A stretch of DNA of 62,353 nucleotides, filler included, from Nemertoderma westbladi (GCA_032718475.1; 4 parts of 4 records of this genome joined end to end with filler, not necessarily neighbours in it); one strand, 5' to 3'; counted from the whole stretch's first letter, positions 26,101 through 62,158 are shown. Numbers and translations are program-made. Notes: a model not told the origin generated them from the sequence alone.

Positions 26101-26202
26101 AACTCAGTTGTATTATTGATGTATTATAATAGCATATTTCATATTTACCAGTATATATATGTGTAAAATACAAGCCGGCATAAAATACAAACAAAATATT
26201 AA

Positions 26203-28722: not shown

Positions 28723-31694
28723 ATGGCGATTGTACCAAGAATTTTGTTCCTACAATTAATAAATTTAGGCTCGCAACTAATTTTGGGTCAACTTCAAAGA
28801 GAATTTCTTGAAAATTGCAAGAAGCACAACGTAATACCGAAGGGTTTGAGGATTTGCTTAAACCTTAATTTACCTGGTAATTCTATTCATTTTGAACAGG
28901 TTCGCATTAAAGCTAAAAATAATATTTTTAAAGCCGAATTAAATATTTTGGAAGTTGTTTCTCTTCATGCCGAGACGAGGCGAAGACATTTTCTTAGTCT
29001 TTTTATGAGAGCTAAATCATCTGCTATCACCTATGATAATTCGAATTCAATCTTGTCCCGCGTTTATGATCACATGAAAAACACTTCTCGTACAGTGAGA
29101 CAGCGTCTGATAAAAAAGTGGAACAATTTAATGAATGAAACCCGCTCTGCTTCAAGCCCTAACAATGTTTTATACGATAATTTGTTGTCTCATAAAAGAC
29201 ATAAACCTGGACCTCAGGGATCCGCACAACGTAGACTTAATTACTTAAACAGACGCAAAAAAATCGAAAATAGATTAGTTGATTCAATGTCAATGAACAA
29301 ATGCGACCCTACTGTATTTGATCCTGTTGTCTATGAAGACATAGAAATCGATGACACAGCAATTTTATTGCTCAAGAAAGGACCTTCGTTTTGCCCAATT
29401 CCTCCACATGCTGATTTGTATCAGGCGAACATAGACTTTATAAAATTTGCTTCATCTATAAGAATAAAATTTGATAATTACATGCAAGAAAAGAAGACAA
29501 ATTTAGGGGTTACAGTAGTTCACAGAGAAGACGATCAGGCCGTTGAAAGTGAAACAGCACCTAATTTTCATCCACGAAAAAAACCGTGGCCCGGTAAATC
29601 TCGTTTTTCATTGAACTCTAACAATCCGATTCTAGAACAATTTTTGAATGAGGTTAGAACTGATTTATTTGATGTATCTAAACGAATTAAAACAAAAGAT
29701 AATTTAAGTAAAAGTGAGAGAATTGCTTTAACTAAATTAAAGAAAACATGTGGCACCATAGGGAGCGAAAGTGTTATTAGGATTCAAGATAAAGGTTCAC
29801 AACGATTTGTTGTTCTGAAAAATTCAACATATTGTAGTAGTGTTGAACGACACTTAGAAGATAAATCTTGCTTTAAACAGCACGATTTGGATCCTTCTGT
29901 AGATTATTTAGTTAAAGTGACTCAATTTGTTTTAAAATGGAAAAATTTGAAAACAATCATTGAATGCAAGGATTGGCTCATCAGCCAGGACCCACAACCA
30001 GGTACAGTATTTGGAAATGTGAAAACACACAAGGAAAATCATCCATTGAGGTATATTCAATCTGCCTGTGGATCAGTTACTGAGCGTTTGGGCAAGTTTG
30101 TTGAATATTATTTACACGAGTTTGGTAGCAAACATGATGCTTTTCTAAAAAATACATTTGACGTTTTGATTTGGATACGAGATATCAATGAACGTCTAGC
30201 TCCCCTTCCGCCAAACTCTAGCTTTTTGTGCCTTGATGTATCAAATTTCTTCCCTTCAGTTGATAACTGCATGGGTTTAGCGGCAGTTGAGGAAACTCTG
30301 GAACAATACAGAACAATTGTTGCAGAAGGTGACCCACCTAATGAATGCATATTAGAAGCTCTTAAAATTTGCCTTGGAAGCAGTAATTGTGCTTTCAATG
30401 GCAAACACTTCACCCAGTCTGGGGGTTCAGCTATGGGACCTTCTTATTCTTGTACCTACACCGATATATGGGGAGCCAAATTCATTGACACGGCAGTGTC
30501 TTCCTTTAATAACAGTCCACAAGAATACAAAAGATACCGAGACGACATTATTTCCTTTGGAATTAATTTTTCGGAAAATATTGTTACAAATTTAGTCACA
30601 CATTTAAATGAGACAGTACTTCCCGGAAAGATTTCTTTAAGTTAGAACAATTTGGTACAAAAGTAAATTTTCTGGATTTAACTATTTTTATTGATGACAG
30701 TGGATACATCCAAACTAAAAATTATCACAAGCCTATGGACGTACATCAGTATTTGTGTCCTTCAAGCGCACATCCACGTTCACAGATTCAAAACATCCCT
30801 TATGGTGTAGCTTTACGCTTGCGCAGGAATTGTAGTTTAGATTCAGATCTTTTTTCTAGTCTCATTGAGTATGGTTCTGCATTTGTCGCGAGAGGCTGGG
30901 ATGAGAAAATTGTTGCTCAACAATTTGCTTCTGCAGCAGTCAGTACGCAGTTTCAAGCCCTTAAAGTAAAAAAAGACAAGCCTAGAAAGAATAAAAAGAA
31001 ACAACTTTTCTATGTACACAATAAGGACCCTCTATTACCTAACCCCAAGGTGATTATTTCAAAACATTCCACAATTCTAGATGAACATTCAATGACAAAA
31101 TCTTTTTGGAATAGTCATAAATTGTAAGTTGTAACTCGCCGCGCACCAACCTTAAAGAATATCCTTGCGCCATCCACACTGAGGTGTACAAGGGAACTTT
31201 CACCTTGTGATTTTCTAGGAGTTCATAAATGTAACAGAGCGGCATGTGTCCCCTGTAAAGTATTATTACCTTTATAATATGTCAGCTCAACAACTAACAA
31301 AAGCCACAGGGTTTATATAAAGAATGATTTATCTTGCAATGCTAAAAATGTTATTTATGTGGTGACTTGCATTAAATGTAACTTATTTGGTATCAGTTCA
31401 ACAGAGGACTTAAAGCCTAGGATAGCCAACTACAAGACAAAGATAATTAATGACAAACCATCGACTGCCATCGACAGACATTTTACTACCTCGGGTCATT
31501 CTTACAATGCACACTTCAGAATTACACCATTTGATTGTCTACCGATCTCAGCAAACAAAAAACTGAACCGACAAAAACTCAGAATTAAAGTGGGAGAATG
31601 GCAGTGCCGGTTGGAAACTTTACAACCAATGGGTTTGAATGTTCTCAACGAGGCGGTGATCAATAACTTTGGACTTGATGTTTTCAATCCTTAA
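28723..31694 (+). pseudogene. Penelope-like polyprotein (RT, Cys-rich linker, GIY-YIG endonuclease), at least two frameshifts
   Basis: LLKKGPSFCP, DNLSKSER.AL, IQDKGS, KTHKENHPLR, CLDVSNFFPS, GSAMG, RYRDDI, HQYLCPSSAHP..NIPYG, NVIYVVTCIKC, LETLQPMGLN. Confidence 0.92.
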
Positions 31695-31787
31695 GAATTA
31701 TAAAGATTAAAGATTCACAGATTTAACAAACTCATTAGTTGCTAGGGAAGTATTATTATTTGTAGTGCATTAATTCTAGAATATCGT

Positions 31788-31827
31788 TTATTTGAAAAAG
31801 ATAGAGAGAGCTATCGAAAGCTAATAA
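31788..31827 (+). ncRNA. Minimal type I hammerhead-like motif in the Penelope 3' pseudo-LTR
   Basis: ttat-TTGAAAA-a-gatag(agagag)ctatc-GAAA-gc-TA-ataa: U3-A8 covariant core, 5-bp stem II, palindromic AGCT stem III. Confidence 0.55.
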
Positions 31828-31984
31828 TAAAAAAATAAATTTTTAGTGATTGATCATATAAGTTGTAACTTTTTGAAATCTTAAAATATTATTATAAAAA
31901 AAATATATATATATAATTAATTAAACTTCAGGTATTTTTAACCGCCAGTTGAGGCCGGTTTTGTAACCGCAGGTTCTGGTTGAA

Positions 31985-32598
31985 CCCAAATCCCCGGTCG
32001 GATATTGAATTCGACTTTAGTAACCTATGGTTTAGTGCTGGTAACTTGCGGTTCAACCATGCCCTCCATTGGTTTTTTACCAGAAATCCCCGGTCGGATA
32101 TTGAATTCGAATTTAGTAACCTATGGTTTACTGCTGGTAACTTGCGGTTCAACCATGCCCTACCATTGGTTTTTTACCGGAAATCCCCGGTCGGATATTG
32201 AATTCGAAATTTAGTAACCTATGGTTTACTGCTGGTAACTTGCGGTTCAACCATGCCCTGCCATTGGTTTTTTACCAGAAATCCCCGGTCGGATATTGAA
32301 TCGACTTTAGTAACCTATGGTTTAGTGCTGGTAACTTGCGGTTCAACCATGCCCTACCATTGGTTTTTTACCAGAAATCCCCGGTCGGATATTGAATTCG
32401 ACTTTAGTAACCTATGGTTTAGTGCTGGTAACTTGCGGTTCAACCATGTCCTACCATTGGTTTTTTACCAGAAATCCCCGGTCGGATATTGAATTTGACT
32501 TTAGTAACCTATGGTTTAGTGCTGGTAACTTGCGGTTCAACCATGCCCTACCATTGGTTTTTTTTAGCAGAAATCCCCGGTAGGATATTGAATTCGAT
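31985..32598. repeat. ~97-bp tandem repeat, about 6.5 copies, subterminal region of the CACTA-type element
   Basis: Unit aaatccccggtcggatattgaattcgactttagtaacctatggtttagtgctggtaacttgcggttcaaccatgccctaccattggttttttaccag. Confidence 0.96.
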
Positions 32599-39888: not shown

Positions 39889-39988
39889 NNNNNNNNNNNN
39901 NNNNNNNNNNNNNNNNNNNNNNNNNNNNNNNNTTAATTAATTAANNNNNNNNNNNNNNNNNNNNNNNNNNNNNNNNNNNNNNNNNNNN
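39889..39988. other. Artificial contig-joining spacer
   Basis: N44-TTAATTAATTAA-N44. Confidence 0.97.
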
Positions 39989-40994
39989 CCAGAGAGGAAT
40001 TGTACTGTAATAGGCAACCAGTATTGCTATTCCAGCCCAGACATCATTCTTGAAATCCAACATCCCAACATCCTTCCTGTATTGACTCTACTATAAGTGT
40101 TGTATTGCTATCTCAGGTAAATGACAGATGTAATAACATAAATACAATCCATGGCATGGCTGTTGTGTAGGCTTCTGAAATAGTTTATTCCACAATGTAT
40201 ATATGTCTGGTTATTTTTTAATTGAATTTTTGCAAAGTAGTAAAATTAATGTTCTTAAAAATAATATTATTATTTTATATGTAACCTAGGAAATTAGCTA
40301 CATTTTTTCGCTGCAGCTTTAAGAGTGTACATTGATTTAATATTATTTCAATACCCATATTACTACATCGGCATAAGATGCGTTGGCGTTGTATCACACA
40401 TCTCCACATATCACACATCTCCACATAGATGTATCAACAGTTACTCGCACAGTTTCGAAACTTCGCATAGTTATAACTGTATAAAGATCGTCAGTCTGCG
40501 TTTAGGAAAAATATTTTATGACAAAACAGGACAAGCGACGAGCGCAACGAGGCATATAATGAAGACGAGTACTGCGTTGACTAAATTGTTATATAAACCA
40601 CCTGGCTTCACATATTGATCGCATCCCTAGTTATTATTATTATAAAGAACGTCCTAGCCTGCGTTTAAGAAATATATTTAAATACAAAACAGGACGAACG
40701 CAAAGAGGCTTATAATGAAAACGAGTACTGCGTTTATTATATTCCTATAAACCACCTGGCTTTGCATATTTAACGTGCGATTGGAAATAAGTTCGTGCTA
40801 CCCTTCCGTGGGTGGTAGATGTCGCGGTTATGTATTGGTGGGTGGGGGGAGGGGGGGGGGGGGGGGGGTGTGCAGATTAAAAGGGGTGAACACGTACTGT
40901 CCCCCTTTCTTTGATTAATTGGTAGTGTGGGTTAATATCTCATAACCTGATTTTGTGATACAGTCGCACAATTTAAATTTGTATCTCATAACTG

Positions 40995-41420
40995 GGCCTC
41001 GTGCTGCGCGAAGGCCCCACGAACGTGTTATTTACACCAGTCGCAGGAACATCAGATGGGGTCTGTTGCCATGAAGCAGAAGTCTTCATAAAACACCTGG
41101 TGGAGACTCTTGTTGGGAGACGGGAGCGCAGTCTAGCGGCGGTATTCGGAGACATTAGAAGGGGGCTGCTATTCGCCCTCCTAAGGTCATCATCCCTTTG
41201 CCTTAGGGGTCGCCGTCGTTCTTGGCGTGATCTGGGGTTCGGTGGCGGAGCAGGCCTATGGGGTCAAGACCTCACCAACCAGTACTAAGCAGACAATAAG
41301 TATTGCATTATAAATATTATGGTGGTTGGGTTTACCCTTATTATGTTTGATTTGATTCCGGTGCTGATTAAAATTGTGGTTAGATTATATAGTACAATTT
41401 AAGTAATAATATAAAAAAAA
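40995..41420 (+). mobile_element. 3' fragment of a CRE-type (restriction-like endonuclease) non-LTR retrotransposon
   Basis: FTPVAGTSDG..EAEVFIKHL..IRRGLLFALLRSSSLCLRG resembles the C-terminus of CRE-clade elements. Confidence 0.65.
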
Positions 41421-41435
41421 TTTATATTTTAACAG

Positions 41436-41602
41436 GACATTGGAAATGAAAAAAACGATTCGAATGAAGGATTTAAGAAAATTTACATCGACCGATATGA
41501 GAGAGTCAGTGTCCTGTATGCCGATATTGTCAACTTTACTCAAATGTCTTCCAAACTGACAGCAGCCGAATTGGTAGTAACCTTAAATCAGTTGTTTGCC
41601 AG
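41436..41602 (+). CDS. ADCY3: Transmembrane adenylyl cyclase, ADCY3-like, C1a exon (first visible)
   Basis: ttttaacag|...|gttagg; FKKIYIDRYERVSVLYADIVNFTQMSSKLTAAELVVTLNQLFA; phase compatible with the next exon. Confidence 0.9.
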
Positions 41603-43075
41603 GTTAGGCACCTGTTAATTTAATATACTTTGTTTATGTTTTGTTTATGTTGAAATTTGAATTTCACAAATAGTTGTTTTCCCAGCTGGTGGTTATAAAC
41701 TCGGAGATTGGAACACCCAAATTTTCGTTAAGCTGTTAACTAATTCTAAGGAAATAGCTTCAGCTCACCCAGCTGCCATGCGAGCCTGACATTACTGGGA
41801 GAGTGCGTATATAGTGGTTGGACAGTTAGTTAGCTTAATCGACCCTGTGAGTTAGTTAGTTATCTTGGTACCCTTCCAAAAGAGAGGAGCCTCCTGGTTG
41901 CCTCTACAGTAGTGTTTCCTGTTTCACATTCACCAATCACTTTTATAATGCATTCAGTAAAAAGTAATATTTTTCTTTCTTCGTTTAGCAAGGGATTACG
42001 CAGTGCAGTCCCCCCAGAACTATACTCCCCAGAGGAAACTCCAGTACTCATTTAGCTACCACTTAAGCATGCAAGGCAGATCCATGACTGGTAGTTTCAA
42101 CTCATTCGCGCCAAAACGAAACTGCGCTGGCCCATGCGAGGGTCAATTAGTTGTAACAGTTTTTTTTTTTTTTACAATTAGTTAAGCTATATTTTGGAAA
42201 TTTTTAAGTGTTGTGTAGAAATCCTTGTAAATTTTCTTAATGATAGAATCGGAAGGTTCTCTAATCTACAAACTAAACTAAACAACTAAGCTCTCATCTG
42301 AGCTGTGGTAATTGGATTCGAAGCGAGGTCATTTTTTCAGTATGAGTGGCTCTCTGGAAGGTAATTAGTGTGTGTTAACTGCATGGATCATCAATGGGTA
42401 AAATCTTTCCCGCACAACCTGCGACCTTATCACCTTGTTTACATCTAATGTCATTTGAGCTAATTAAATTGCAAAATTATTATGTGCCGAATGTAACAAA
42501 ATATTAAAATCCGTGTTATTACTTGCTGTATTCTTGATATTTATTAATTTTGAACTATTTATTACTGTAACTATTAATAAAACAATGGCGAAAAAGACAA
42601 AACAGGCAAGAGTTAACGCTATTTGTTATTGTTACATTATTGCAGAAAATTGACTTTTTACCTCCTGGCATTAGGGTCAAATACTAGTCAAATGCTACTT
42701 ATTTATTATTATACATATAGTAGGTGTATACTGTATAGCACCATTAGAATTCTTGAAGAACGTCGTCCACCATAGGAAAATAAGTCGACATTGTTTCACT
42801 TCCAGTATTTGTATTTATTTTATTGAATAAATTAATTTGCTATATTTTGTCACCTAAACATTAACTAAAATGTTTAATTTAGCATTCAGAACACCGTTTT
42901 ACTTACATAATTGGATGAAATGCCAACGCTATTCAGTGTTAAAAACACTCGTTAATTTATGCTGATCTCCTTCGCTTTGCACGCTTGGAGCATAAATATA
43001 CACAGGTAACACTCAACTCAGACAAGTGAAGTAGTGCTACGTTTCACACCATGATGTAAACAGATAGTAATTAAG

Positions 43076-44201
43076 GGATGTAGGACAATTCGGTCCCGGA
43101 CAATTCGGTCCGGACAATTCGGTCCCGGACAATTCGGTCCCGGACAATTCGGTCCCAAAACAGTAACTAAATGGGACCAAATTGTCCGGGACCGAATTGT
43201 CCTAGGTCCGAATTGTCCGGGACCGAATTGTCCGGTTCTGATGCAGCTTTTTAGTGCTTTTTTGATATTGGTGAATGTTTTAGAACATTAGTAGAGATAT
43301 TTTTTTATGGTAGCTAGTGTTATTTACAAGCTATAATTTTTTGAAATTATAAAAATACTATATACTTTTTTTTATTTTTGTTATTGGTAAGTGTTCTAAA
43401 ACATTATTATATATTATTTATTAAGTGTAGCTAGTGTTTATTTTACTGGCTAGCATTTCCTTGAAATTATAAAAAAACTTGTGAAAACATTGATATTTCA
43501 GAATTAGGCCTAAACTGTTGCTGATTATATTAATTACCAAAAATATTGATGATATTATAACAGTCCCTGAATGAGATCCAGCTATTATCTAAGATAATAA
43601 TTTAGGCTTGTTAACCAACCAACAAAACATGCAGCATACATACGCAATATATAAAAAAAATCAGTTTTAAACATTTTAAATACATACTATTACTAGCTAG
43701 TAAATAATTCACAAGCTCCATAAAAACACCATAGCTACCATAACTAATAATGTTAACAAAAAAAAGTAAAATTTTTTTATTTACAAAAAAAATACTAGCT
43801 AGTAAAAAAGACACTAGCTACCATATAATAATATCTTTAAGGTTCTAGAACATTCACCATTATATAGTGCAATAGTACCAATTAAATTTGGTCCCGGACA
43901 ATTCGATCCCGGACAATTCGGTCCCGGACAATTCGGTCCCGGACAATTCGGTCCCGGACAATTCGGTCCCGGACAATTCGGTCCCGGACAATTTGGTCCC
44001 GGACAATTCGGTCCCGGACAATTCGGTCCCATTAATATGCATGTTTTGGGACCGAATTGTCCTAGTCAGTATCCGGACAATTCGGTCCCGGACAATTCGG
44101 TCCCGGGCAATTCGGTCCCAAGACACAAAAAACATGGGACCGAATTGTCCGGGACCGAATTGTCCGGACCGAATTGTCCGGGACCGAATTGTCCTGCTTC
44201 C
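43076..44201. mobile_element. Mutator-superfamily (Rehavkus/foldback-type) MITE with 15-bp tandem repeats in both arms
   Basis: 9-bp TSD GTAATTAAG (43067-43075, 44202-44210); TIR ggatgtaggacaattcggtccc/gggaccgaattgtcctgcttcc; repeat ggacaattcggtccc in both orientations. Confidence 0.85.
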
Positions 44202-44206
44202 GTAAT

Positions 44207-44740
44207 TAAGGGGGGGGGGGGGGGGGGTAAACCCCCTGGTGTTTTTTTTTATTTTTTTTATATCACTAAAAAGTCTACTCCTCTGTTATTTTCTTTTTTA
44301 TCTTTTAATACCACATTTTTTGGAACCAGCATGTTCATTTTAATCCTATTTTTCGGCCACTATTTATATTTTATATTTCTTATAATTGGCAATTTTTTAA
44401 AAAAATTAAAAATTATTAAAAAATTTAAAAACACATGTTGTTTTCAAATTTATTTCAATAAAAAAGGGAGAAATATTATCAAATCAAGAAAACCAATGAA
44501 ATTATCTTTCATATACATCTAAAATTGCAAAAACGGTTAAGAAATGACGGAGGAGTAGTATTTTTCTTGTGAGAATATGTCATTCAGAGATTATTGATTT
44601 ACCTTCCCGCGCAAAAATGCCTGGTTGGTTATTACTGTCTGACAGGAAGGAAGCACACCACCGTGCTAAAATTATATTTACGGGGGTTTTCGGGGTCACT
44701 GATTTCATTTCCGATGTCACCGATTAAAACAGAAATTACA
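44207..44740 (+). mobile_element. Non-autonomous TTAA-flanked DNA transposon fragment (same family as 16790-17496)
   Basis: Reverse-complement similarity to 16800-17350; starts at TTAA followed by poly-G. Confidence 0.45.
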
Positions 44741-46163
44741 TTAAGGCAACAGCTCTGCACACAACAGTACCTACTACTGTAGTACTGCTACCACCGGTAC
44801 CGGTGACAGACTAGATAATACCTGAGTGTTTAAAGCTCATCTATCCCATCATAGTAGACATGTACCGTACAACAAGAGTCCCACAAGAAATGAAAACAAA
44901 TAAGTTGGTGCCAGTTCCCAAGAAGGGCAACCTAACACTCTATGGTTCTTTTCGGGGAATCTCATTGATCTCGATTGCTGCAAAACTATACAATAGAATT
45001 CTATTAAATCGCATCAGGGATCCCATTGAGAGACTGCTACGTGGAAATCAGAATGGGTTCCGTAAAGGTCGTGGGACCATGGAGCCCATTTTGGCACTTA
45101 GAAGGATAATTGAAGAGTTATCAAAAAAGAAAGACAGGCATCTGGCTGTTATCTTTGTTGACTTCTTCAAGGCCTTTGATTCAGTCTCTCGCTCACGTAT
45201 GTTCAGCATACTTTCATTGTATGGGATTCCTGATGAAATTATTGCAGCAATCAGATCAGTATACGATGGTTCGACAACATTTGTGTCTACTGTTGACGGT
45301 GACACAGAACCATTTGAAGTGTTATGGGGCGTCCTCCAAGGAGACACACTTGCACCATTCTTGTTCATTATTGTGGTTGACTATGTTCTACGCATGTCCT
45401 TAGATCATCATAATGATGATGGGGTGATGATAACTCCACCTACTGGCTCCAGAAGTCGAGGAAATCCTGCCAAGTACCTAACTGATCTAGACTTTGCTGA
45501 TGACTTAGGAGTACTCTCAGAATCATTAGAGGGAGCCCAGCGGCTCCTCAGCTCATTAGAACATGCTGCTTCTAGTGTTGGTCTTTTTATTAACTCCAGA
45601 AAGACCAAAATTCTGACAGTTAACTTTGAAAGTCCTCAGCAAGTCTCTGATCGGATGAGCATAAGCTCAAAGGATGGTATGCTTGAGCATGTGGACGACT
45701 TCTGTTACCTGGGATCATGGATCCGGAAGTCAGGTGAGGACCTTCGAATACGTAAGGGAAAGGCATGGGCAGCCTTGAATAGGCTTTCCAGGATTTGGAA
45801 GTCACCTAGAATTAATCGGAAACTTAAGGTCCGATTATTTAGAGCAGCAGTAGTTCCAGTACTCCTCTACGGGAGTCCATGCTGGGCTCTAACTGCTGAG
45901 GACACCAAATCTCTGGATTATTGATAGTAACAATGTGTTGGCAAGCTGTATTTTTCGAGGTGTTTGTTATTATACATTTTATTATAAGAAGGGATCTAGG
46001 GGTCTTAACCTCGAATGATAAGTTTATTTTACCGAAAATAACTTATCTTTTATTGGCGCAATTGTAGGACTAATCCCATCACAAGCGTACTTTTTAACCG
46101 GGTAGTGTACAAATTTAGGAATCGCGTAATTTTTCTTGAAATTAATATCTCATATCTCTCCAA

Positions 46164-46206
46164 ACCACGTACGCGTTTCGACCTTACTGGGTCTCATCAG
46201 CGTGGT
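46164..46206 (-). ncRNA. Type I hammerhead ribozyme (copy 1)
   Basis: Minus strand accacg-CTGATGA-gacc(cagtaa)ggtc-GAAA-cgc-GTA-cgtggt: complete core, 6-bp stem I, 4-bp stem II, palindromic ACGCGT stem III. Confidence 0.9.
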
Positions 46207-46207
46207 G

Positions 46208-46264
46208 TCGGATTCGAACCTGGGACCTCGAGGCGGAAGCCGAGACTACAACCACTAGGCCACA
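46208..46264 (-). promoter_or_regulatory. tRNA-like Pol III internal promoter (A and B boxes); repeated at 46620-46676
   Basis: TGGCCTAGTGG ... GGTTCGAATCC with an anticodon-like arm ctcgg-cttccgcc-tcgag between. Confidence 0.8.
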
Positions 46265-46575
46265 GGTTCTTGAGATATGGAGTATTAATTTCAAAGACAG
46301 CTGCCATTTTATTAGCCCCTGATTTTTTATTATTGATAGTAACAATGTGTTGGCAAGCTGTATTTTTCGAGGTGTTTGTTATTATACATTTTATTATAAG
46401 AAGGGATCTAGGGGTCTTAACCTCGAATGATAAGTTTATTTTACCGAAAATAACTTATCTTTTATTGGCGCAATTGTAGGACTAATCCCATCACAAGCGT
46501 ACTTTTTAACCGGGTAGTGTACAAATTTAGGAATCGCGTAATTTTTCTTGAAATTAATATCTCATATCTCTCCAA

Positions 46576-46618
46576 ACCACGTACGCGTTTCGACCTTACT
46601 GGGTCTCATCAGCGTGGT
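46576..46618 (-). ncRNA. Type I hammerhead ribozyme (copy 2)
   Basis: Identical to copy 1, 412 bp away. Confidence 0.9.
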
Positions 46619-48106
46619 GTCGGATTCGAACCTGGGACCTCGAGGCGGAAGCCGAGACTACAACCACTAGGCCACAGGTTCTTGAGATATGGAGTATTAA
46701 TTTCAAAGACAGCTGCCATTTTATTAGCCCCTGATTTTTTATTATTGATAGTAACAATGTGTTGGCAAGCTGTATTTTTCGAGGTGTTTGTTATTATACA
46801 TTTTATTATAAGAAGGGATCTAGGGGTCTTAACCTCGAATGATAAGTTTATTTTACCGAAAATAACTTATCTTTTATTGGCGCAATTGTAGGACTAATCC
46901 CATCACAAGCGTACTTTTTAACCCTTCCCTTCTTTTTCTCCCTCCCTTCTTCTTCTCTCTCTCTTTTTTTTTTTCCCTTCTTATAATAAAATCTCTGGAT
47001 GGCACATTCACAAGAATGCTACGCCGGGTACATTGTGTCAAGTACAATGCACACATCTCCAACCAGACACTATATAACATTGGAGGTGTCTCATTGGTTC
47101 CCCCAAGCTTGACACTAGAACAAAATCGCCTCCGCTTTGCAGGACATTGCTTTCGCCGTGAGGACCAGCCAGTGCACAATCTTGTACTTTGGCAGCCTCA
47201 TGGAGTGAATAAGCATGGTGGACAGCCCATGACTTTCTTGAGACGCATCTTAAAGGACACTGGCCTTAAAGATGCGGATGATCTAGCAAATGTCATGGGT
47301 GATAGGGAGTTGTGGCGGTGCAATTTTGTTGACAAGCCGGCACAGCATTCTTAAAAATGCAGCTGCAATGCAGCATGCCGATCCTAGTAGTACCGGTACC
47401 GGTGACAGACTAGACTAACTAATGGGGCACTTTAATAATAATAATAGTTTTATTGACGAAATAGCTGACACAGAATTACAAGTAACACCAGTAAACAATT
47501 AACAACTTCACATTCACAAATTCATATAACAAAATCAATACGAATAATAGAACCCATCGTCCAAATAATATCACTAACAAAAAATCAGACCAAAATCTTG
47601 TATGTATGTAATTGATCCTATAATACAGTAGCACAAACTGTATAATTACATACATACTGTATAATTAACTCTATCACTAAACTCACCACTCTACTACTCT
47701 ACATGTTATAACGCTCCAATTATTATAAGAATATTGGCTATAATTGCACTCATATACTGTAGGTTTTTTTAATTTAGCAGATCCCTTATGTTTAAGCGTG
47801 GTGCGGTTGTGTCGTGTTGTGCTATAAGTTCGTTAGATTTCTCACCAACCGGTCTCAAACGAGTCAGCGTTCTGTGTGTTAAGTGTACAGCTTTCTGTAG
47901 TTGTCGACAACAGTGAAAAATGATGCACATTTGTTTTTTTATTTACTTTGATATAGCAGATGTTTAAAAAATGCTTCTTTGAAAATGAATTTTGTATGAT
48001 TAATATATATTAATTAACTTGTGTCTAAAATTTTAGCACTGGTATAAATTAATCTTCTAGTGATCCATACAATATCCGAGCAACAATTCCATTCTGTATT
48101 TTTCAG

Positions 48107-48257
48107 TTTTGACAAGTTGGCCGATAAATACCATCAGTTGAGGATAAAGATTCTCGGAGATTGTTATTATTGTGTATGCGGCGTTCCAGAGTTCCGGAAA
48201 GATCATGCCATATGCGCTGTTAACATGGGACTGAGTGTTTGCAAAGCAATAATAAAG
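48107..48257 (+). CDS. ADCY3: Adenylyl cyclase ADCY3-like, C1a exon
   Basis: tttttcag|...|gtaata; [34 protein letters not shown] (KYHQLRIK is characteristic of AC3). Confidence 0.93.
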
Positions 48258-49513
48258 GTAATATTTAATTTAGGTATCATTATTTCTTATGTAGTGTTGA
48301 GACAGCCAGACTGTAACGGATTACAAAACTTTGTTGATTAGATTTGTATTTTTGAAGGATAGCTCAAAGAAAATGATTGATTACTAATGTTATAACGTTG
48401 ATTAGAATTTTATCAGAGATCACCATATCTTGAGTAATTCTGATTGACGACTTGGTTTTATTATTTGTACCTTTTGTTAAGGTTGCTAATTTCCACATGG
48501 TTCATATAATATTAAGAATCGTTTTTTGGAGAAATTTATTCAGTGGAACATTGAACTACGTCCAATTACTTTTCTTAGTTAAAATATAACTGATCCATGT
48601 CAATAAAATATATATGTATAAGTAAGTAAGTAATAAAATATATAAGTATGCAGGTTAATAATAAATTGCAGGAACATGTTGTTTATACCATGTTTTTTTA
48701 CTTTTCTTCTAAACATTAATTTGCTATGTTTTCTGTATTGGTATTGGATTTGTTTCAATGTTGTCGACGTCCTTGTTTCTGCGTACTTTCTGTTGTTGTT
48801 CAGTTCATTCGGTATCACGTGTGTGTTGTTTTAGTAGGTAGAGGTTGATGCTGCCCAGTATTTCAGTAACCATTGTATTGTATTAGGCGTTCTCCCATTG
48901 AGTTGCTCGGGAGGATCCAGATAGGTAGGTAGTTTATTTGCATTTCGATGAGTTTATTTGCGGAAAGATAGAATGAATAAAGTAGCAGCTATGAATGCAA
49001 ATTTCATGTTATCCATCAATCAATTTCTCTCGCACTTTCTGTTAGCTTATGTGGTGAAGTATTACTGTAACCGAACCCATTATCCCTTATGATCTTGTGA
49101 TATATTATATATCTAATTCATCATGATCTTTTTTCGCAATAAAATCATATTAATGGGTATTTACCGGCCACATAAAAGCTCAATGCCGGGCTTTATTTAT
49201 TTCTCATACTGTAAAGAGGAGCCTTTCCTTAGAACATAAGCCATTTAGGGAAAATCATTATTTAGGGGAGAATTTATTTTTAGCGGATTTGTATTGTTTT
49301 CTACTGGTGAATTAATTATTTAGTGTAAATCTCATTATTTTTATGGAAAATTTAATATTTTTGGAGAATCCAAAAATATTAGCAGTAGACTGATCATTGG
49401 GTCCATGACTGCCCTGGACCTATAGCCTAAACGCTACTTATATTACTTCTTAGGTGATGGCACTGGTGACTTTAATTTATTATTTAAATAATTATAATTA
49501 ATAATATTTCCAG

Positions 49514-49771
49514 GTACGAGAGAAGACAAACACTGGCGTGGATATGAGAGTTGGTATTCATTCAGGTGCAGTTCTTGGCGGCATTATGGGCCAGAAACAG
49601 TGGCAGTTCGACATCTGGTCAAAGGATTCCACCCTCGCCAACCGGATGGAATCGGGTGGAATTCCTGGAAGGGTACACATCTCGGAGAAGACGCTTCGGT
49701 CGCTGAAGGGGAAGTTCGAGGTAGAACCAGGCTATGGAGGAGATCGTGATGAGTACCTTAAAGCCAATCAG
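49514..49771 (+). CDS. ADCY3: Adenylyl cyclase ADCY3-like, C1a exon (gene runs off the contig)
   Basis: ttccag|...|gtaatt; [47 protein letters not shown]. Confidence 0.93.
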
Positions 49772-50003
49772 GTAATTAGTATTTAATATTTATTACATTT
49801 TGTTAATCTGCCATATATAATTTAGATTTTTTAATTTCATTTATATGAATTTTTTTATTATATCAAGCTATATCTTAATTTGTATCACTAATTAATTGCA
49901 GTTATTACAACAATGTTACGGTATAGGAAATAATGACAATAATATATACTAAATAATTAAATTTATAAGTAATACAAATATTTTGCAATTAAATTGAAAC
50001 ACA

Positions 50004-50103
50004 NNNNNNNNNNNNNNNNNNNNNNNNNNNNNNNNNNNNNNNNNNNNTTAATTAATTAANNNNNNNNNNNNNNNNNNNNNNNNNNNNNNNNNNNNNNNNN
50101 NNN
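50004..50103. other. Artificial contig-joining spacer
   Basis: N44-TTAATTAATTAA-N44. Confidence 0.97.
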
Positions 50104-50588
50104 GATATAAATAAATAGCGAATTACTTTATCAAGGTAGGTAAACTACGGTACCATATCGCTTATGTATGACACAATATCGTAACTTACGTGTCATATGG
50201 CCCTAAGTTGTCGGATTTTACTTTTGTTATACAATTCCACACTTTAAGACATGTTCTATCAGCTGGTGAAGTTAATTGAACACCAATGGGAACTGATGAT
50301 TATTGCGTAGTAATGTGAAGCCCTATAAATCCCAGCGGACAATATTTTACTGCAGAAACGCCCAATATCTCTGCATATCTTTTATAGGCTCTCCTTAACA
50401 ATTGAAATTTTTGACTTAAGGCCTTATGACACTTAAGCTACGATATAATATATCAAATTCTTTGACTTTTCCCTGATTTGTCCTTTTTTTATAAGATTTC
50501 GCTGACATTCCACAAGATAAAATTGAATTCCCTTACTATTCCAAGTGTTTGGCAACCCAAACACTCTACACCTTAATAATAAACTCAC

Positions 50589-50716
50589 CAACGGCTATTC
50601 GGCACCTCACCAGTCCGTCTGGACCGATACGCAGACAGGACCCGAAGTCAGCCAATCGAATGTGTCCGTCCGCGTCTATGAGAACATTGTCCGGCTTTAT
50701 ATCCCGGTGCACATAG
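50589..50716 (-). CDS. MRCK: MRCK/CDC42-binding kinase, coding exon 2 (catalytic loop and DFG)
   Basis: ccttatag|...|gtgagt; [42 protein letters not shown]; phase matches exon 1; absent from the ORF track. Confidence 0.92.
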
Positions 50717-52108
50717 CTATAAGGGGAAATAAAGTCGTTGCGCAATATTCTATCGAATTTATTACCGAAAATAATACAATTTGGTATTTAAAAAACTATA
50801 CTTGTGGAGAGGATAGACACCTAATATGTTTAAGAAATAAGAACCTCTGAAAATCCTACCTAATTCGTTTCAGAAAACAATTATTAGTAAATACAAATGT
50901 CAAAAATAATTTTCCAATTTAGCAACTGTACATCACAGGGTAACAATGAGTGAGAAGATGTGATTAACAATTTTATTACTTCCAAATTGCCAATCAAATT
51001 ATAAATTTCGTTCAATTTTATAATTGGCAAAATATATCAAATTACGGCGGTATATTTATTAAAAAAATCCATCGACCCACACCCACACCCACCCACCCCC
51101 ACATACTAAATAAAAGCTTTACTTGTTGTAAGTCACTGTTTTTGTCAAATTCGTTAACAAGTTTGACAAAAAATAACAATTTTTTGTCAACAAAAAAAGT
51201 AATGTTGTATTAAAATTCCAAGTAATTTCCACGACATGTATTTTTTATAACTAGCTATATAGTTTTTGTAAATGTTATAGAACACGTGATAGCTATCAAT
51301 TTTGATAAATATTTCTAAAATAATAGACGATTTATCTGCCCCTCCCCCCCCCCCCCCCAGATGTGAATTAAAGGCAAAGCATTAAACCATTACAGCATTA
51401 CGCCAAAGGAAAAATAAATATGGGACCAGTTCGTGGTGGGTGTCGGGGTCAATTAAACAACAACATCAACCCCCGACCCCCTTCTGCCCTTCCCCCCTGT
51501 CTCTGTGAAATAATAAGCTGCTAGAAACTTACATCTATAATATTAATTTATATAAAAAAAAATAAATATATAGGCCTATAATTACCGTACAAAACAAAAT
51601 ATAAATTAAAATAATTTAAAATGTTAATTTTTTTTAGTTTTAAAATTATTAAAATTTAAATTAAAATAACTGTTATGAAAATTTAAAAAAATAAAATTTA
51701 GTTGTAAATTCTGAAACCACTAGTTCTTTGTTACTGCGGATTGCGCACTAGTGAACATTCCTGTGCAGTTCCTCAACAGCTGAGTGTACACCGGTACAAT
51801 ATAGGCCTACTTTTTGTTAACTACATTCAGACATTTTGTGGGAATAGCTTTGCGGGACACCGATGCTCAAATCCACTAGGCCTATCATTGTATTTATCCT
51901 TTTCATAAATATGTTTCATATTTATCTATATTTATGTTTTGTCTTATATATTTTATGAATTGAAAGTAAATATCTTTAATCTATCAATCAAGAATGTTGT
52001 CGTGACTCGTGAGTGGGGATGTAGAGTGGGAGACATCTAACATGCAACCAACTGTTGCCTGTATATATATAAAATAAATGTAAGAGAACAACCAACTACA
52101 GAACTAAC

Positions 52109-52707
52109 CCAAGTTGATGCAACGAGGTGATCGCCAGCACCATCTCAGCTATATAGAACCGAGTCCAATCCTCTGATAAGCGATCATCGTATTTCGATAG
52201 CAGAGTCAGCAAATCGCCTCCGTTGTAATAATCCATAATTAAATAAAGATTATCAGAGTCCTGAAAAGCGAAATGGAGCGTTGTAATCCATTTATTATCA
52301 CCGAAAACTAGAACATCTCGTTCCTCGCGGAAACAAGCTGTTTCCGCGCGCTTCAACATTTCCCATTTATTTAAAACTTTCATCGCGTAAACTTTCCCAG
52401 AGGCTCTCATTCTAACCACCGAAACCTCCCCAAAAGCGCCACGACCGATAACATTTAGGGTCTCGAAATCGTCTCGTTTGAGCAACAAACTCCGTAATTC
52501 TGTAACGAAAGGGGTCGCCCAGGCGACAAACTCTTTGATGTGTTTCAAGTTGCGTAAAGCCGGGCTCCGCGTGAATTCCTCGTGCAGCGCGATTAAAATG
52601 TCCAGTAATGTTTCCACCCCGACGGAATACTCTGCATCCTGCTGCCCCCCCGGGGTGAACAATCGGGACATCTTGGATAGACGGACGTCCGGCGGGGCGA
52701 GCTCCAT
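52109..52707 (-). CDS. MRCK: MRCK/CDC42BP (DMPK family) Ser/Thr kinase, first coding exon
   Basis: [65 protein letters not shown]; donor gg|gttagt. Confidence 0.95.
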
Positions 52708-53084
52708 AGCGCCGGAATTGGGAGGGAAGGGGATAAATAACTGTGCAAGTACCGGTATACCTGGCTGCCTGGCAATAAATATGTATGTAAATAGTCAAAT
52801 AGTGAAAGTAGGTACCGGCAGACCGGTATTGATTGCTACCGGCAACCGGTATGATTACTGGATTAGGTTAGCTTGTTGGTTGATCAGTTTGCAGTTGATG
52901 GGCGAATGTCTGAATGTGATAAAATTTACAACAAATTAACGTACTACTGCCATGGTACTGCCGTATGTTTCAATATCGGCCTAACTGCTGAACTGCCTAA
53001 GTTAATCTATTAGGTTAGGACTACCTACCGGCTACCAGTACCAATACCGGCCAGGTTGGAATTTATGTAGAGTTTGCTCAACAT

Positions 53085-58190: not shown

Positions 58191-58330
58191 TTTCGGAAAC
58201 ATTTCGGTTGTTTCTCTCTATAGATTACTGTTACAAGAAGACACCTAAATTTGGCAGTATCTAGTACCTACTGCAACTGATATACTGCACTACTGTCTGA
58301 CTCTATTTATTTGGTGTTAATTATTATGAA

Positions 58331-59233
58331 ATGGGTTTCTCAGGGTCGCTCGATGACCTGCTGAAGCTCGCAGCCACCGATGCGAATGCCAAGTGCGGCC
58401 AAGCAACCAAGCCAGAGCTGCAACAATTGCTAAAAGAGGCCGTCTCTCGCCTCTCCAACGCCACCCCCCTCCCGTCCCTCTCCGCAATCTCCAAGGCCGT
58501 CGCCAAGGAGGTGGAACCCCTCAAGAAGGCCGTAGACACCTGCCTCATCGAGATCACGAGGCCTCGCTCTGGAGGCATTCGTGGGCAATTGTACCGACCT
58601 CCCCCGACGCAACCTGCCCAGTCGCCGCCCCGCACCACGAGACTGGGACCCAGCCGGCCTCCAACATTCGCCGACGCCGTTCGGTCACCCCGCAACGTAT
58701 CACCGGCCCTTTGGGTTACCCGCTCGGCAGCACCCAGTCTGGCTGCTCCCACGGTTAGTGCACCGCCTCCCGGCCCTCCACCCGTCTCCTGCCGCCACCC
58801 CCGTCGCGTGGCAGCCAGGGGTTCCCGAGTGAACGCCACAATTGCCGCCGCTCCCTCTCCGCCCCGTCTGGCATTTATTCATATAGGCCGGGTCGACCCA
58901 AAGGACTCCGTGGAGAAGGTTAAATCGTTTCTCCAGGCGGAGAACATCGAATTCAGGGACGTGTCTTGCCTACCTCAACGTGGTGAAAACTCGCCCTATG
59001 CGTCTTTCCTGATCACGTGTTTGCAGTCATCCCGGGATCAGGTGATGGACCCTTCCCTTTGGGGACAAGGGATTACAATTCGGAATTACCGACCATCCAT
59101 TGAACAGCGCGCTAAGTTCGTCCTTCGACCGAGGCCAACCGATCGTTTCCAGCAGAGACGACCGCAAACGCCTCCGCCGCCAGCTACACCAGTCACCGAC
59201 TCCATCGCCTCGGACACTGAGCGGGTAGAATGA
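58331..59233 (+). CDS. CR1 ORF1 protein (helical N-terminus, Pro-rich linker, RRM-like domain)
   Basis: Position upstream of ORF2; FIHIGRV..VKSFL..YASFLI..DPSLWGQGITIRNY. Confidence 0.8.
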   Translation: MGFSGSLDDLLKLAATDANAKCGQATKPELQQLLKEAVSRLSNATPLPSLSAISKAVAKEVEPLKKAVDTCLIEITRPRSGGIRGQLYRPPPTQPAQSPPRTTRLGPSRPPTFADAVRSPRNVSPALWVTRSAAPSLAAPTVSAPPPGPPPVSCRHPRRVAARGSRVNATIAAAPSPPRLAFIHIGRVDPKDSVEKVKSFLQAENIEFRDVSCLPQRGENSPYASFLITCLQSSRDQVMDPSLWGQGITIRNYRPSIEQRAKFVLRPRPTDRFQQRRPQTPPPPATPVTDSIASDTERVE

Positions 59234-62158
59234 CTACCTGCTGTCGCCCAGTGCCTGCCGCAGTCCGCTTCTCCACATTCGTTATGCTCAGTCCTTATAT
59301 TTAATGTACGGAGCATTCTTGATCGTAAGCGCCGGATCTGTTTCGCCAACGCCATCGCTGCGTCTAGCTACGACATACTCTGCATTACCAAGACGTGGCT
59401 AACGAGCAACGTCCCGGACGGTGGTCTCCATTTACCCGGCTACAACATCATCCGGGCGGAACGTCCCCCCAAGTCCTCAGGCTCTTCGGCACACGGCGGC
59501 TGCCTCATTGGTATTCGGTCGAATATCCCCTATATTGAAGTAAAAGTTCCAGCCAGCCTAACTACCTCAGCTATAGTAACTATAATTGGCACAGGGAACT
59601 CCAAATTAATGCTAATAAACATATACAACCCCCCCGAAGTCAGCCCCTATCGCTGGCCCACCAGCCTCTTCGATCAGTTAATCAGCATCATTCCGCAACA
59701 CAAACTCAATTTTGCATGTTGCAGGTGCTACCTTGTTGGCGACCTAAACCTGCCGCTAGCTAACTGGCCCACTATGTTTTCTTCCAACATCTATGAGAAC
59801 AACATTCTTCTTGCTTTGGACACCATAAACCTGAAGCAACTAGTTGATTTCCTCACCACCCGCACCTCCACCCTGGACATCGCCCTCACCGACTGCGAGT
59901 CCACGGTCAGCGTCGAACCCGATCCTGTTTTCAACTCTTTGTTCTCTCTCGATGGCCGCTGTCTCTCCGACCACAAGCCAGTTCGGCTAGTATTTGAATC
60001 ACAAATCCCAGATTCCAAAGTCCCGTCAAAGAAGATAGTATATTCCTTCTGCCGCGCCGACTACAAGGGCATGCGTAAGGAAATTAAGGACTCACCTTTT
60101 TCTCCTCGAGATTCGGCTCCCAACGCTGTTCTCAATGAATGGTACTCGTGGGTTGCAGGGTTGATATCTCGGTTCGTACCGAGACGAACCAAGCATCGTC
60201 AAACCCTCCCCCCATGGGCTTCCTCATCATTGTCTAACCTGCAAAAGAGATTAAACATACTGCGCAATAAACTCGCCAAACGGGTCTCTCCCAATCCTAC
60301 ACTATCCGCTAAAATAACTGCCAAAGAATCTGATCTCAACCTCCAACTACACCAGGAGCAGTCTGAATATGAAAAATTAACCTTCGAAAACTCTCGCTTC
60401 GATATGATTTTCAAGTATTTGAAATCAATAAGAAAAACCAACAACATCCCGCCAATTGTTAAATGGGGCAACGAAACTGCTTCCACCGAACCCGAAAAGG
60501 CGGACCTGTTTAACAGGTACTTCCAGTCCGTCTTCAACCCACCAAGCGAACCCACACACCTCGACCACTCAAGCTTCCCCGGTTGCGTAGACGACTACAA
60601 TGTCTCCTGTGAGTCCATCTCTGAGGTTCTCGCGAAATTAAAGACCAACAAATCTCGCGGACTCGACGATATTCCACCAGCTTTCCTCAAGTCTCTCGGG
60701 CCCGACATCGCCCCATCCTTGAACGTTCTTTTCAGCATCCTAAAAGCCACAAACACATTCCCGGACTTTTGGAAGTGCGCTCTACTCTCTCCCCTCCATA
60801 AAAAACTAAGTAAAATGTACACAGACAACCACAGACCAGTGTCCCTCCTCTGCATTATCTCCAAGGTCTTCGAATCCCTCGTGTTTCGTCCACTTTACCG
60901 GCATCTAGCCCCTCGCCTGCACTGCTCCCAGTACGGTTTTCTCCAACGAAAATCTACTACTGTACAACTGCTCCAATTCTTAGATGCAGTCTACAAAGGT
61001 ACAGAAAGCAACTTAGAAACCATTGAGACAATCTATTTAGATTTTTCTAAGGCTTTCGATAAAGTGGATCATAACATCACACTTCAAAAACTGTCGGACA
61101 TTGGTGTTAGAGGAAATATGCTCCTAATTATTAAGTCCTACCTTTCGAATCGCCAACAGATGACGAGGATCGGAAACTCCACCTCTAGTCCGCTTCTGGT
61201 CGGCAGTGGCGTTCCTCAGGGTGCCCTGCTCGCCGTCCTCATCTTCCTCAACCACAACGACACTCCAACATGCATCGTACACTCAATCCCTTTTCTCTTC
61301 GCTGACGATATGAAGGCCCTTTCAATGGTTTCCGACCAAACTGCTCTCCAAGCGGACCTCGACCGTCTCTCCGACTGGGCCATGTCCTTCTCCAAGGACA
61401 AGTGCCGCCATCTCGTCTTCCACGGCAGCCCGCCCGACCGAACCGTCTCTGGGTTCACAATCGCCCAAGCCACCTCCGAGAAGGACCTCGGACTAATTGT
61501 GTCGACCGACCTCTCCTGGTCGGCGCACATCTCCGAGCGGGTTGCCAAGGCGACGCGGGCCTTGTTCCAGCTGAAGCGCTGCACGTCGCCGCTTCTGCCG
61601 GAGTCCGCTCGCCTCGCCGCCTACAAAGGCCTCGTGGTACCGATTGCCGCCTACGCGTCCCAGTGCTGGTTTGCCAACCGCGGCGACATGAAACTCATCG
61701 AGCAGCTACAGCACCGGGCCACGCGCTGGGTGACGTCGTCTGACCACCCCTATAAAGACAGACTCCTCCAACTTAAACTTCTTCCCCTCAACCTTTACCT
61801 GGAACTGCACGATCTCCTCCTGCTTGCTGCCATCATCAATAATCGGTTCGATTTTGAATGGCGTCCATTCGTCAAGTTTCATATGCCACCTGCTAACCGC
61901 CCAACCAGATCCAACAGACTTTTCGACCTCCCGCGGATAACCAAGGCTAGCTCGCGCCGGAACTTCTGGTTCCGCTCGCAGTGGCTGGCCAACAGACTTT
62001 CACCATCCGCGGATCTATATCTATCAGCAGGTGTCAAGCAGCGGCTCGCAGCGATCTACTGGGAGCATTTCGTGCACAGGTATAATGATGATAACCTGTG
62101 CACATGGCACCTGGCATGTTCCTGCGGCCTCTGTATTAACATATATAGCCACTACTGA
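59234..62158 (+). CDS. CR1 ORF2: apurinic endonuclease + reverse transcriptase; open from the ORF1 stop with no AUG for 125 codons
   Basis: FNVRS, DILCITKTWL (E-to-K at the usual ITETWL Glu), HGGC, IYNPP, VGDLN, LD, SDH; RT RPVSLL, QYGF, YLDFSKAFD, GVPQG, FADD, EKDLG. Confidence 0.9.
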   Translation, partial: LPAVAQCLPQSASPHSLCSVLIFNVRSILDRKRRICFANAIAASSYDILCITKTWLTSNVPDGGLHLPGYNIIRAERPPKSSGSSAHGGCLIGIRSNIPYIEVKVPASLTTSAIVTIIGTGNSKLMLINIYNPPEVSPYRWPTSLFDQLISIIPQHKLNFACCRCYLVGDLNLPLANWPTMFSSNIYENNILLALDTINLKQLVDFLTTRTSTLDIALTDCESTVSVEPDPVFNSLFSLDGRCLSDHKPVRLVFESQIPDSKVPSKKIVYSFCRADYKGMRKEIKDSPFSPRDSAPNAVLNEWYSWVAGLISRFVPRRTKHRQTLPPWASSSLSNLQKRLNILRNKLAKRVSPNPTLSAKITAKESDLNLQLHQEQSEYEKLTFENSRFDMIFKYLKSIRKTNNIPPIVKWGNETASTEPEKADLFNRYFQSVFNPPSEPTHLDHSSFPGCVDDYNVSCESISEVLAKLKTNKSRGLDDIPPAFLKSLGPDIAPSLNVLFSILKATNTFPDFWKCALLSPLHKKLSKMYTDNHRPVSLLCIISKVFESLVFRPLYRHLAPRLHCSQYGFLQRKSTTVQLLQFLDAVYKGTESNLETIETIYLDFSKAFDKVDHNITLQKLSDIGVRGNMLLIIKSYLSNRQQMTRIGNSTSSPLLVGSGVPQGALLAVLIFLNHNDTPTCIVHSIPFLFADDMKALSMVSDQTALQADLDRLSDWAMSFSKDKCRHLVFHGSPPDRTVSGFTIAQATSEKDLGLIVSTDLSWSAHISERVAKATRALFQLKRCTSPLLPESARLAAYKGLVVPIAAYASQCWFANRGDMKLIEQLQHRATRWVTSSDHPYKDRLLQLKLLPLNLYLELHDLLLLAAIINNRFDFEWRPFVKFHMPPANRPTRSNRLFDLPRITKASSRRNFWFRSQWLANRLSPSADLYLSAGVKQRLAAIYWEHFVHRYNDDNLCTWHLACSCGLCINIYSHY

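What the first reader, a model, noticed from the sequence alone, without database searches (positions are those of the whole stretch)
45919..46988. tRNA-headed hammerhead retrozyme: a 412-nt self-cleaving unit, recently retrotransposed into a LINE inside an adenylyl cyclase intron
Seen: ~2.4 apparently identical 412-bp units flanked by a 12-bp TSD, with the empty target visible in the sister RTE near 57330. On the minus strand each full unit has Pol III A/B boxes fused directly to a complete type I hammerhead (CUGAUGA/GAAA/GUA, palindromic ACGCGU stem III). The 5' end has a purine tract and a short inverted copy of unit sequence (tattataagaaggg). Known: metazoan non-LTR retrozymes, Schistosoma Sm-alpha and newt satellite 2 are tandem hammerhead repeats, and palindromic stem III permits dimeric cleavage. 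Inference: multimeric transcripts cleave at 46170/46169 and 46582/46581 to release a 412-nt monomer that may circularise and be copied by a Penelope-type RT. The ribozyme is antisense to ADCY, so it would not cut the host pre-mRNA. The family is probably unannotated; the ORF track misreads it as two 124-aa proteins.
Basis: partly seen in the sequence, partly recalled or inferred. Interest (0 to 1): 0.85.

Follow-up and report, generated by a model that had tools for sequence, protein, structure and literature searches.

The report
Promoter-carrying hammerhead retrozyme, freshly inserted
This is one young insertion of an abundant 412-base non-coding repeat in an animal, in which each unit pairs tRNA-type promoter motifs with a predicted self-cutting hammerhead RNA, a design already known from blood flukes, and its two ends suggest that a Penelope-type transposon enzyme likely copied it, probably from a small RNA circle.

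Summary
There are 2.44 identical 412-bp units (45917-46923) between 12-bp target duplications, splitting a young RTE-like LINE in an adenylyl cyclase intron, antisense. Each full unit has Pol III A/B boxes beside a type I hammerhead with a palindromic stem III (0 of 5000 shuffles give either). The family is abundant and dispersed in three laid runs of one organism.

The design is known: Schistosoma Sm-alpha is a promoter followed by a hammerhead in tandem, and animal non-LTR retrozymes are described. This scan has already reported what appears to be the same family four times in this genome.

Added here: both ends start inside the unit at A-rich sites with 2-4 nt of microhomology, one as an inverted copy (Penelope-like, twin-priming layout). 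An allele in at most 0.14% of family depth sits in all three copies, pointing to one template. A Penelope element in the window ends in a 12-mer identical to one priming site.

Corrections: the tRNA fold is lost, the promoter lies at the 3' end of the cut monomer, and a T4 run lies between the ribozymes. Cleavage, expression, circles and the partner enzyme are untested. New member of a known kind.

The parts
45907..45918 (+). Left target-site duplication (12 bp); its last 2 nt are shared with the unit (microhomology)
45919..46923 (-). Tandem array, 2.44 identical 412-bp units; RNA sense is the minus strand
46170..46581 (-). Predicted 412-nt monomer between the two cleavage sites; highly self-paired (z -4.86 linear, -4.98 circular)
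46576..46618 (-). Type I hammerhead 1; predicted cut between 46582 and 46581; palindromic stem III
46164..46206 (-). Type I hammerhead 2; predicted cut between 46170 and 46169
46622..46674 (-). Pol III type-2-like promoter 1: A box 46674-46664, B box 46632-46622, starts 42 nt apart; no tRNA cloverleaf
46210..46262 (-). Pol III type-2-like promoter 2: A box 46262-46252, B box 46220-46210
46447..46450 (-). The only run of four T per unit on the RNA-sense strand; possible weak Pol III terminator between the two ribozymes
46924..46973 (-). Purine-rich filler, not part of the unit, joining the long copy to the inverted copy; by eye made of repeated pieces resembling the end of the inverted copy
46974..46988 (+). 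Inverted 5'-truncated copy of unit positions 45980-45994; the match runs 4 nt on into the right duplication (microhomology)
46989..47000 (+). Right target-site duplication (12 bp)
44815..47354 (+). Host RTE-like LINE: reverse transcriptase frame, open for 485 codons across the empty site
41603..48106 (+). GT-AG intron of an adenylyl cyclase type 3-like gene that holds the LINE and the insert
28723..31834 (+). Frameshifted Penelope-like element on another assembled piece, with its own U3-A8 minimal hammerhead (31788-31827) followed by a 12-mer identical to the unit's priming site; candidate partner family, not part of the insert

Best explanation
This is a young insertion of a high-copy, protein-free tandem element that likely transcribes itself with RNA polymerase III, is predicted to cut its RNA in pairs of hammerheads into 412-nt units that would close into circles, and was likely pasted in by a Penelope-type enzyme. 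Shown: array, target duplication, motifs, junction anatomy, many dispersed copies. Inferred steps: (1) Pol III starts just upstream of the A box at 46674 and reads through the T4 at 46450; (2) the two hammerheads pair through their palindromic stem III and cut after 46582 and 46170, so a lone circle would be protected from cutting itself; (3) a host ligase closes the monomer; (4) an endonuclease nicks both target strands 12 bp apart, the first 3' end primes inside the RNA near 45918 and reverse transcription runs 2.44 times round, the second primes near 45980 and copies 15 nt, and the two copies are joined through the purine filler. Because the ribozyme is antisense to the cyclase, it would not cut the host pre-mRNA.
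For: Motifs absent from 5000 of 5000 shuffles. Monomer strongly self-paired, 0 of 100 linear and 0 of 60 circular shuffles as stable. In two-unit RNA the double hammerhead is the minimum-energy fold, -171.7 against -170.9 kcal/mol for the local fold; closing stem III in a single hammerhead costs about 5 kcal/mol. 27,974 contigs laid in X1, 7,358 in X3, 221 in X6 on LINE plus unit; loose ends with unlike flanks and the 412-bp wrap joint in X1, X3, X4. The window's allele at 46084 is in at most 0.14% of X1 depth and 0.05% of X3 depth, yet all three array copies carry it. Inverted 5'-truncated copy next to a partial tandem is typical of Penelope insertions (PMC8557442 passages); a purified Penelope protein cuts and extends both strands at AT-rich sites and starts inside the RNA (PMC11167929 parts 1-2). 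The window's Penelope ends in the same 12-mer as the first priming site; 4 of 819 AT-rich 40-mers do so.
Against: No cleavage, RNA or circle was observed. The double-hammerhead fold holds only 4-11% of the predicted ensemble. Eight of nine Xenopus retrozyme dimers did not cleave in vitro (bioRxiv 10.64898/2026.07.22.740005), and uncut RNA was the main template of the purified Penelope protein, which also started at a site not homologous to the target. A T4 lies between the ribozymes and T-run depletion is not beyond chance, P about 0.49. The shared 12-mer is a post hoc match in AT-rich DNA (BLAST E 0.2). A homogeneous donor array would also give identical copies. Twin priming is a LINE-1 term (recalled), and LINEs are abundant here.
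Confidence: 0.58

Rival explanations
1. Same element and Penelope-type partner, but the template is an uncut linear multimer read through a homogeneous donor array; the hammerhead is slow or dispensable and circles play no part.
For: Uncut RNA was the dominant substrate of the purified Penelope protein; 8 of 9 tested Xenopus dimers did not cleave; Rfam score is below gathering; the active fold is 4-11% of the ensemble.
Against: The core is intact, and no variant reaching 5% falls in the hammerhead or the boxes in X1 or X3 (weak, only about 7 such sites in the unit). A rare allele in all three copies still needs a homogeneous source. Coral, mussel and axolotl retrozymes of this layout make circles (PMC7229834).
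Confidence: 0.2
2. A LINE enzyme (RTE, L1 or CR1 type), not a Penelope enzyme, copies the RNA by twin priming.
For: The target is a young RTE-like LINE with an open frame and about three times the unit's summed depth; 12-bp duplications fit LINEs (recalled).
Against: No similarity between the unit and the LINE's 3' end; no poly-A or short-repeat tail; both ends start inside the unit; type I hammerheads and tandems are shared with Penelope elements.
Confidence: 0.12
3. The unit is only the terminal repeat of a coding Penelope with a tRNA-derived promoter, and this array is its debris.
For: Most of the examined Xenopus retrozymes group with Penelope terminal repeats; two unchecked notes from other genomes reached this reading for similar units.
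Against: Units join head to tail with no coding sequence. The hammerhead is of the canonical 6-bp/4-bp type, not the minimal type described for Penelope repeats. The Penelope in the window has a different ribozyme and shares at most 12 nt with the unit. The one long high-depth contig with the hammerhead region (X6 record 26, 1831 nt) has changes in three core positions.
Confidence: 0.08
4. A locally amplified satellite or an assembly artefact with chance motifs.
For: The assembly is fragmented, with 10-24 kb pieces; copy number within the array could be mis-assembled.
Against: Clean target duplication with an empty sister site; motifs beyond chance; many unlike flanks in separate studies.
Confidence: 0.02

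Closest known systems
Schistosoma Sm-alpha / Sj-alpha SINE-like hammerhead retroposons (PMC6765202 passages; PMC2770079 passages; the 1998 and 2000 primary papers not read)
   Same: Pol III promoter followed by a hammerhead, in tandem; the promoter ends up at the 3' end of the cut monomer, so two units are needed; more than 10,000 copies.
   Different: Host not shown to be a fluke and sequence homology not tested; Sm-alpha copies are still read as tRNA-Gln, this one is not read as any tRNA; stem III here predicts dimer-only cleavage; this insertion shows an inverted, doubly primed end.
Metazoan non-LTR retrozymes (PMC7229834 parts 2-4 of 6; PMC7761336 passages; bioRxiv 10.64898/2026.07.22.740005 parts 1-3 of 5)
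   Same: Tandem units of 150-450 bp, type I hammerhead in each, low GC, long target duplication, self-paired monomer; palindromic weak stem III as in axolotl HHR_Amex1; Penelope elements in the same genome.
   Different: The 2020 review says metazoan retrozymes seem to lack promoters and any motif pointing to their partner; this one has A/B boxes and a candidate shared priming motif. Circles are shown there, not here.
EN+ Penelope-like elements (PMC8557442 passages; PMC11167929 parts 1-2 of 4; PMC4209133 section 5 and passages)
   Same: Partial tandem plus adjacent inverted 5'-truncated copy, internal start of reverse transcription, AT-rich target, type I hammerhead.
   Different: No reverse transcriptase or GIY-YIG frame; canonical rather than minimal hammerhead; short microhomology at both starts.

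Membership tests
Metazoan non-LTR retrozyme | Type I hammerhead in at least two consecutive tandem units | tested here: met
   (motif level; Rfam score below gathering)
Metazoan non-LTR retrozyme | Unit of about 150-450 bp, GC below 50% | tested here: met
   412 bp, 38.8% GC
Metazoan non-LTR retrozyme | No protein-coding region and no LTR layout | tested here: met
   pure head-to-tail repeat; the 124-aa ORFs are antisense and their frame has no Pfam match
Metazoan non-LTR retrozyme | Target duplication longer than 4 bp; dispersed copies | tested here: met
   12 bp; many unlike flanks in X1, X3, X6
Metazoan non-LTR retrozyme | Highly self-paired monomer | tested here: met
   z -4.86 and -4.98
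Metazoan non-LTR retrozyme | Self-cleavage and accumulation of circular RNA | not testable with these tools
   no RNA holder listed among 12 runs; all laid runs are contigs
Sm-alpha-type SINE-like retroposon | Pol III promoter followed by a hammerhead, tandem, promoter at the 3' end of the cut monomer | tested here: met
   boxes at 46262-46210 inside monomer 46581-46170; description
Sm-alpha-type SINE-like retroposon | Recognisably tRNA-derived promoter region | tested here: inconclusive
   boxes at tRNA-like spacing, but ARAGORN and Rfam find no tRNA and the region folds as a long hairpin
Sm-alpha-type SINE-like retroposon | Sequence homology to Sm-alpha; transcription by Pol III | not tested
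   no Sm-alpha sequence was at hand; no RNA data
Autonomous Penelope-like element | Reverse transcriptase plus GIY-YIG frame between terminal repeats | tested here: not met
   none within the insert; a coding parent elsewhere in the genome was not searchable
Penelope-mobilised insertion | Inverted 5'-truncated copy beside a partial tandem; internal start | tested here: met
   criteria
Penelope-mobilised insertion | Two fixed start sites giving an optional tail across the family | tested here: inconclusive
   loose-end clusters at 45917 and 45978 are no larger than a clipping cluster at 45871 in the LINE
Classical LINE-dependent SINE | tRNA head at the 5' end of the insertion and a LINE-like or poly-A 3' tail | tested here: not met
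   insertion starts and ends mid-unit; no match to the LINE 3' end

The most novel reading that the evidence does not exclude
A self-sufficient Pol III RNA circle that mimics the 12-nt A-rich end of a resident Neptune/Nematis-type Penelope, so that the Penelope enzyme primes on it from both target strands and copies it round and round: a named partner and a priming signal for animal retrozymes, which the literature read here still lists as open.
Probability: 0.3. Interest if true: 0.68.

Novelty: new member of a known kind. Interest (0 to 1): 0.4.

Why it matters
How animal retrozymes are transcribed and which enzyme moves them is still inferred from co-occurrence. This family offers an internal promoter, a two-ribozyme minimal unit, a clean empty site and a candidate partner in the same genome, so each step can be tested in vitro. 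It is not a new kind of element, and the host gene is probably a bystander.

Tried and rejected
No whole genome is held, so copy number and a coding parent could not be searched directly. No RNA holder listed. X4 (RNA is a guess, another organism label) holds the unit as one 441-nt contig that wraps round: tandem DNA gives the same shape, so it is no evidence of a circle. Family-wide priming hot spots: I first read the loose-end clusters at 45917 (28, 21, 4 contigs) and 45978 (20, 21) this way, then dropped it, because their consensus begins with the unit's own next letters and a cluster of 17 and 20 sits at 45871 in the LINE beside a majority variant; only 20 of 1405 loose-end rows were shown. 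The depth profile along the unit was not used. T-run depletion is not significant. The energy printed for an enforced local stem equalled the unconstrained value and was discarded; one search replaces it. A B-box-plus-hammerhead pattern gave 7 metagenome and 1 viral locus; none resembles the unit, 5 of 8 lie among tRNA genes. Rfam did not recognise the Penelope's minimal hammerhead. Host phylum unresolved: best cyclase hits are 74% identical or less. Paper searches for retrozyme with polymerase III (2 papers), hammerhead with SINE, B box and retroposon, and twin priming with Penelope (2 unrelated listings) found no description of such a family outside Schistosoma; the library lacks most subscription papers and Repbase was not searched. 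PMC5785218 is not held. Supplements of PMC7229834 and of the 2026 preprint were not seen and may list such a family. Left open: single-copy depth baseline, longer relatives in low-coverage runs, and whether other individuals carry this insertion.

Full report
Observation. Tandem Repeats Finder and an exact comparison give a 412-bp period from 45917 to 46923, 2.44 copies with no mismatch. A 12-bp duplication flanks the insert (45907-45918, 46989-47000). The same 12-mer lies unbroken in a sister LINE copy, 97.9% identical over 622 bp. It sits in a GT-AG intron, 41603-48106, between exons that match consecutive parts of the cyclase domain PF00211; the best homologues are adenylyl cyclase type 3 at 74% identity or less, so the host is an animal without close kin in that search. 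The window is a chain of contigs joined by 100-bp spacers; the insert's piece is 39989-50003.

Ribozyme. On the minus strand each full unit has a complete type I core with stem I of 6 bp, stem II of 4 bp and cleavage after 46582 and 46170. These are the only canonical hits in the window; 0 of 5000 shuffles of the unit give one. Rfam agrees weakly (HH9, 26.6 bits, E 4.5e-4, gathering 52) and finds nothing at gathering. Stem III is a six-base palindrome. Closing it within one ribozyme costs about 5 kcal/mol, and two palindromes pair at -7.5. In two-unit RNA the double hammerhead is the minimum-energy fold, 0.8 kcal/mol below the local fold, but holds only 4-11% of the ensemble in three constructs. 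This matches the dimer-dependent type described for axolotl and most animal hammerheads. The monomer is strongly self-paired.

Promoter. A and B boxes lie 42 nt apart, ten bases upstream of the core. The tRNA shape is gone: ARAGORN and Rfam find none, and the region folds as a side hairpin inside an extended stem I. In the cut monomer the boxes are at the 3' end. The upstream promoter at 46674 would read both ribozymes, so this insert is the smallest that could release one monomer. One T4 run, 46450-46447, lies between them; Pol III stops at runs of four or more T, context-dependently (recalled), so read-through is required. Depletion of T runs is not beyond chance.

Family. Seven of 12 listed runs hold the unit, six with half its words or more, in five studies; none is on record as RNA. 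I laid 4 of the 12 on 45500-46330. X1, X3 and X6 gave 27,974, 7,358 and 221 contigs on LINE plus unit. Summed depth on the unit in X1 is 3.9-8.2 x 10^5 (edge bin excluded) against 21-54 for its eight listed long pieces, which suggests thousands to tens of thousands of units; the tool warns that this sum is no copy number. Loose ends have unlike flanks (agreement 0.41-0.54), and the 412-bp wrap joint recurs in X1, X3 and X4. The window copy differs from the majority at four sites (45987, 46084, 46234, 46297). Its allele at 46084 is in at most 0.14% of X1 depth and 0.05% of X3 depth, yet the three copies of that position in the array agree. They come from one monomer or from an already homogeneous donor. 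A cut linear monomer could give only about 250 nt from the first priming site, so the template was a circle or an uncut multimer.

Ends. The left end starts inside the unit at an A-rich site with 2 nt shared with the target. The right end is an inverted copy that starts at a second A-rich site with 4 nt shared and runs 15 nt, then a purine filler joins it to the long copy. This is the layout expected if both target strands primed on the same RNA. An inverted 5'-truncated copy beside a partial tandem is typical of Penelope insertions, and a purified Penelope protein cuts and extends both strands at AT-rich sites and starts inside its RNA. One opposite-strand joint at 45994, where this inverted piece ends, appears in one contig each of X1 and X3, a weak hint of recurrence. 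Family-wide hot spots are not shown: the loose-end clusters can be explained by clipping.

Candidate partner. Another piece of the window holds a frameshifted Penelope-like element, 28723-31834, with reverse transcriptase and GIY-YIG-like segments read by eye (Pfam gave no match; the Atlas gave eukaryotic RT-like clusters at 0.96) and a CX4CxxC linker, the mark of Neptune and Nematis. Its 3' end has a minimal hammerhead with the U3-A8 core described for Penelope repeats; 0 of 40 block-shuffled windows give such a hit. The 12 nt from its cleavage position match the unit's first priming site exactly and the second at 11 of 12; 4 of 819 AT-rich 40-mers have a 12-nt match anywhere in the unit. This is post hoc and may reflect only a shared need to pair with T-rich targets.

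Comparison. Schistosome Sm-alpha is a Pol III promoter followed by a hammerhead in tandem, with the promoter at the 3' end of the cut RNA, tRNA-derived and above 10,000 copies. Animal non-LTR retrozymes make circles and are thought to use Penelope enzymes; a 2026 preprint ties them to Penelope terminal repeats but saw cleavage in 1 of 9 dimers. A 2020 review says they seem to lack promoters. So the kind is known; this family meets every sequence criterion I could test. Earlier notes of this scan describe 411-412-bp units of the same design at four other places in this genome; they are unchecked, and a search by sequence returned none of them, so identity with this unit is by description only.

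Verdict. Real, young, and a new member of a known kind. Best reading 0.58; uncut multimer 0.20; LINE partner 0.12; Penelope terminal repeat 0.08; artefact 0.02. Interest 0.4.

Noticed in passing
window 28723-31834 (+): Frameshifted Penelope-like element with a CX4CxxC linker and a U3-A8 minimal hammerhead at 31788-31827; Rfam misses the ribozyme.
   Followed up: partly
window 24010-24109, 39889-39988, 50004-50103: 100-bp spacers with the same 12-nt all-frame stop linker: the window joins unrelated contigs, so neighbours across them are not linked.
   Followed up: yes
window 45926-46051, run X6 record 24: A 600-nt contig at depth 512 matches the unit with 12 differences, nine of them A to G on the plus strand beyond the family's majority allele; a divergent subfamily or an edited antisense copy.
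   Followed up: no
window 46137-46245, run X6 record 26: An 1831-nt contig at depth 401 carries the hammerhead region with three core changes: probably a decayed copy nested in another repeat.
   Followed up: partly
L002, L003, L004, L006, L007: Prokaryotic or phage tRNA genes followed closely by hammerhead-like cores; L002 and L003 lie in clusters of 10 and 11 tRNA genes.
   Followed up: no
window 58301-62158 (+): LINE with a 310-aa frame and a 974-aa endonuclease plus reverse transcriptase frame, both without stops.
   Followed up: no
window 52099-52794 (-) and about 50530-50700 (-): Protein kinase segments on the piece after the last spacer.
   Followed up: no
window 1-2333, 5624-7255, 24675-26103, 31988-32597, 43083-44194: Several young tandem arrays (periods 96, 94, 159, 97, 15); the hammerhead scans found nothing in them.
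   Followed up: partly
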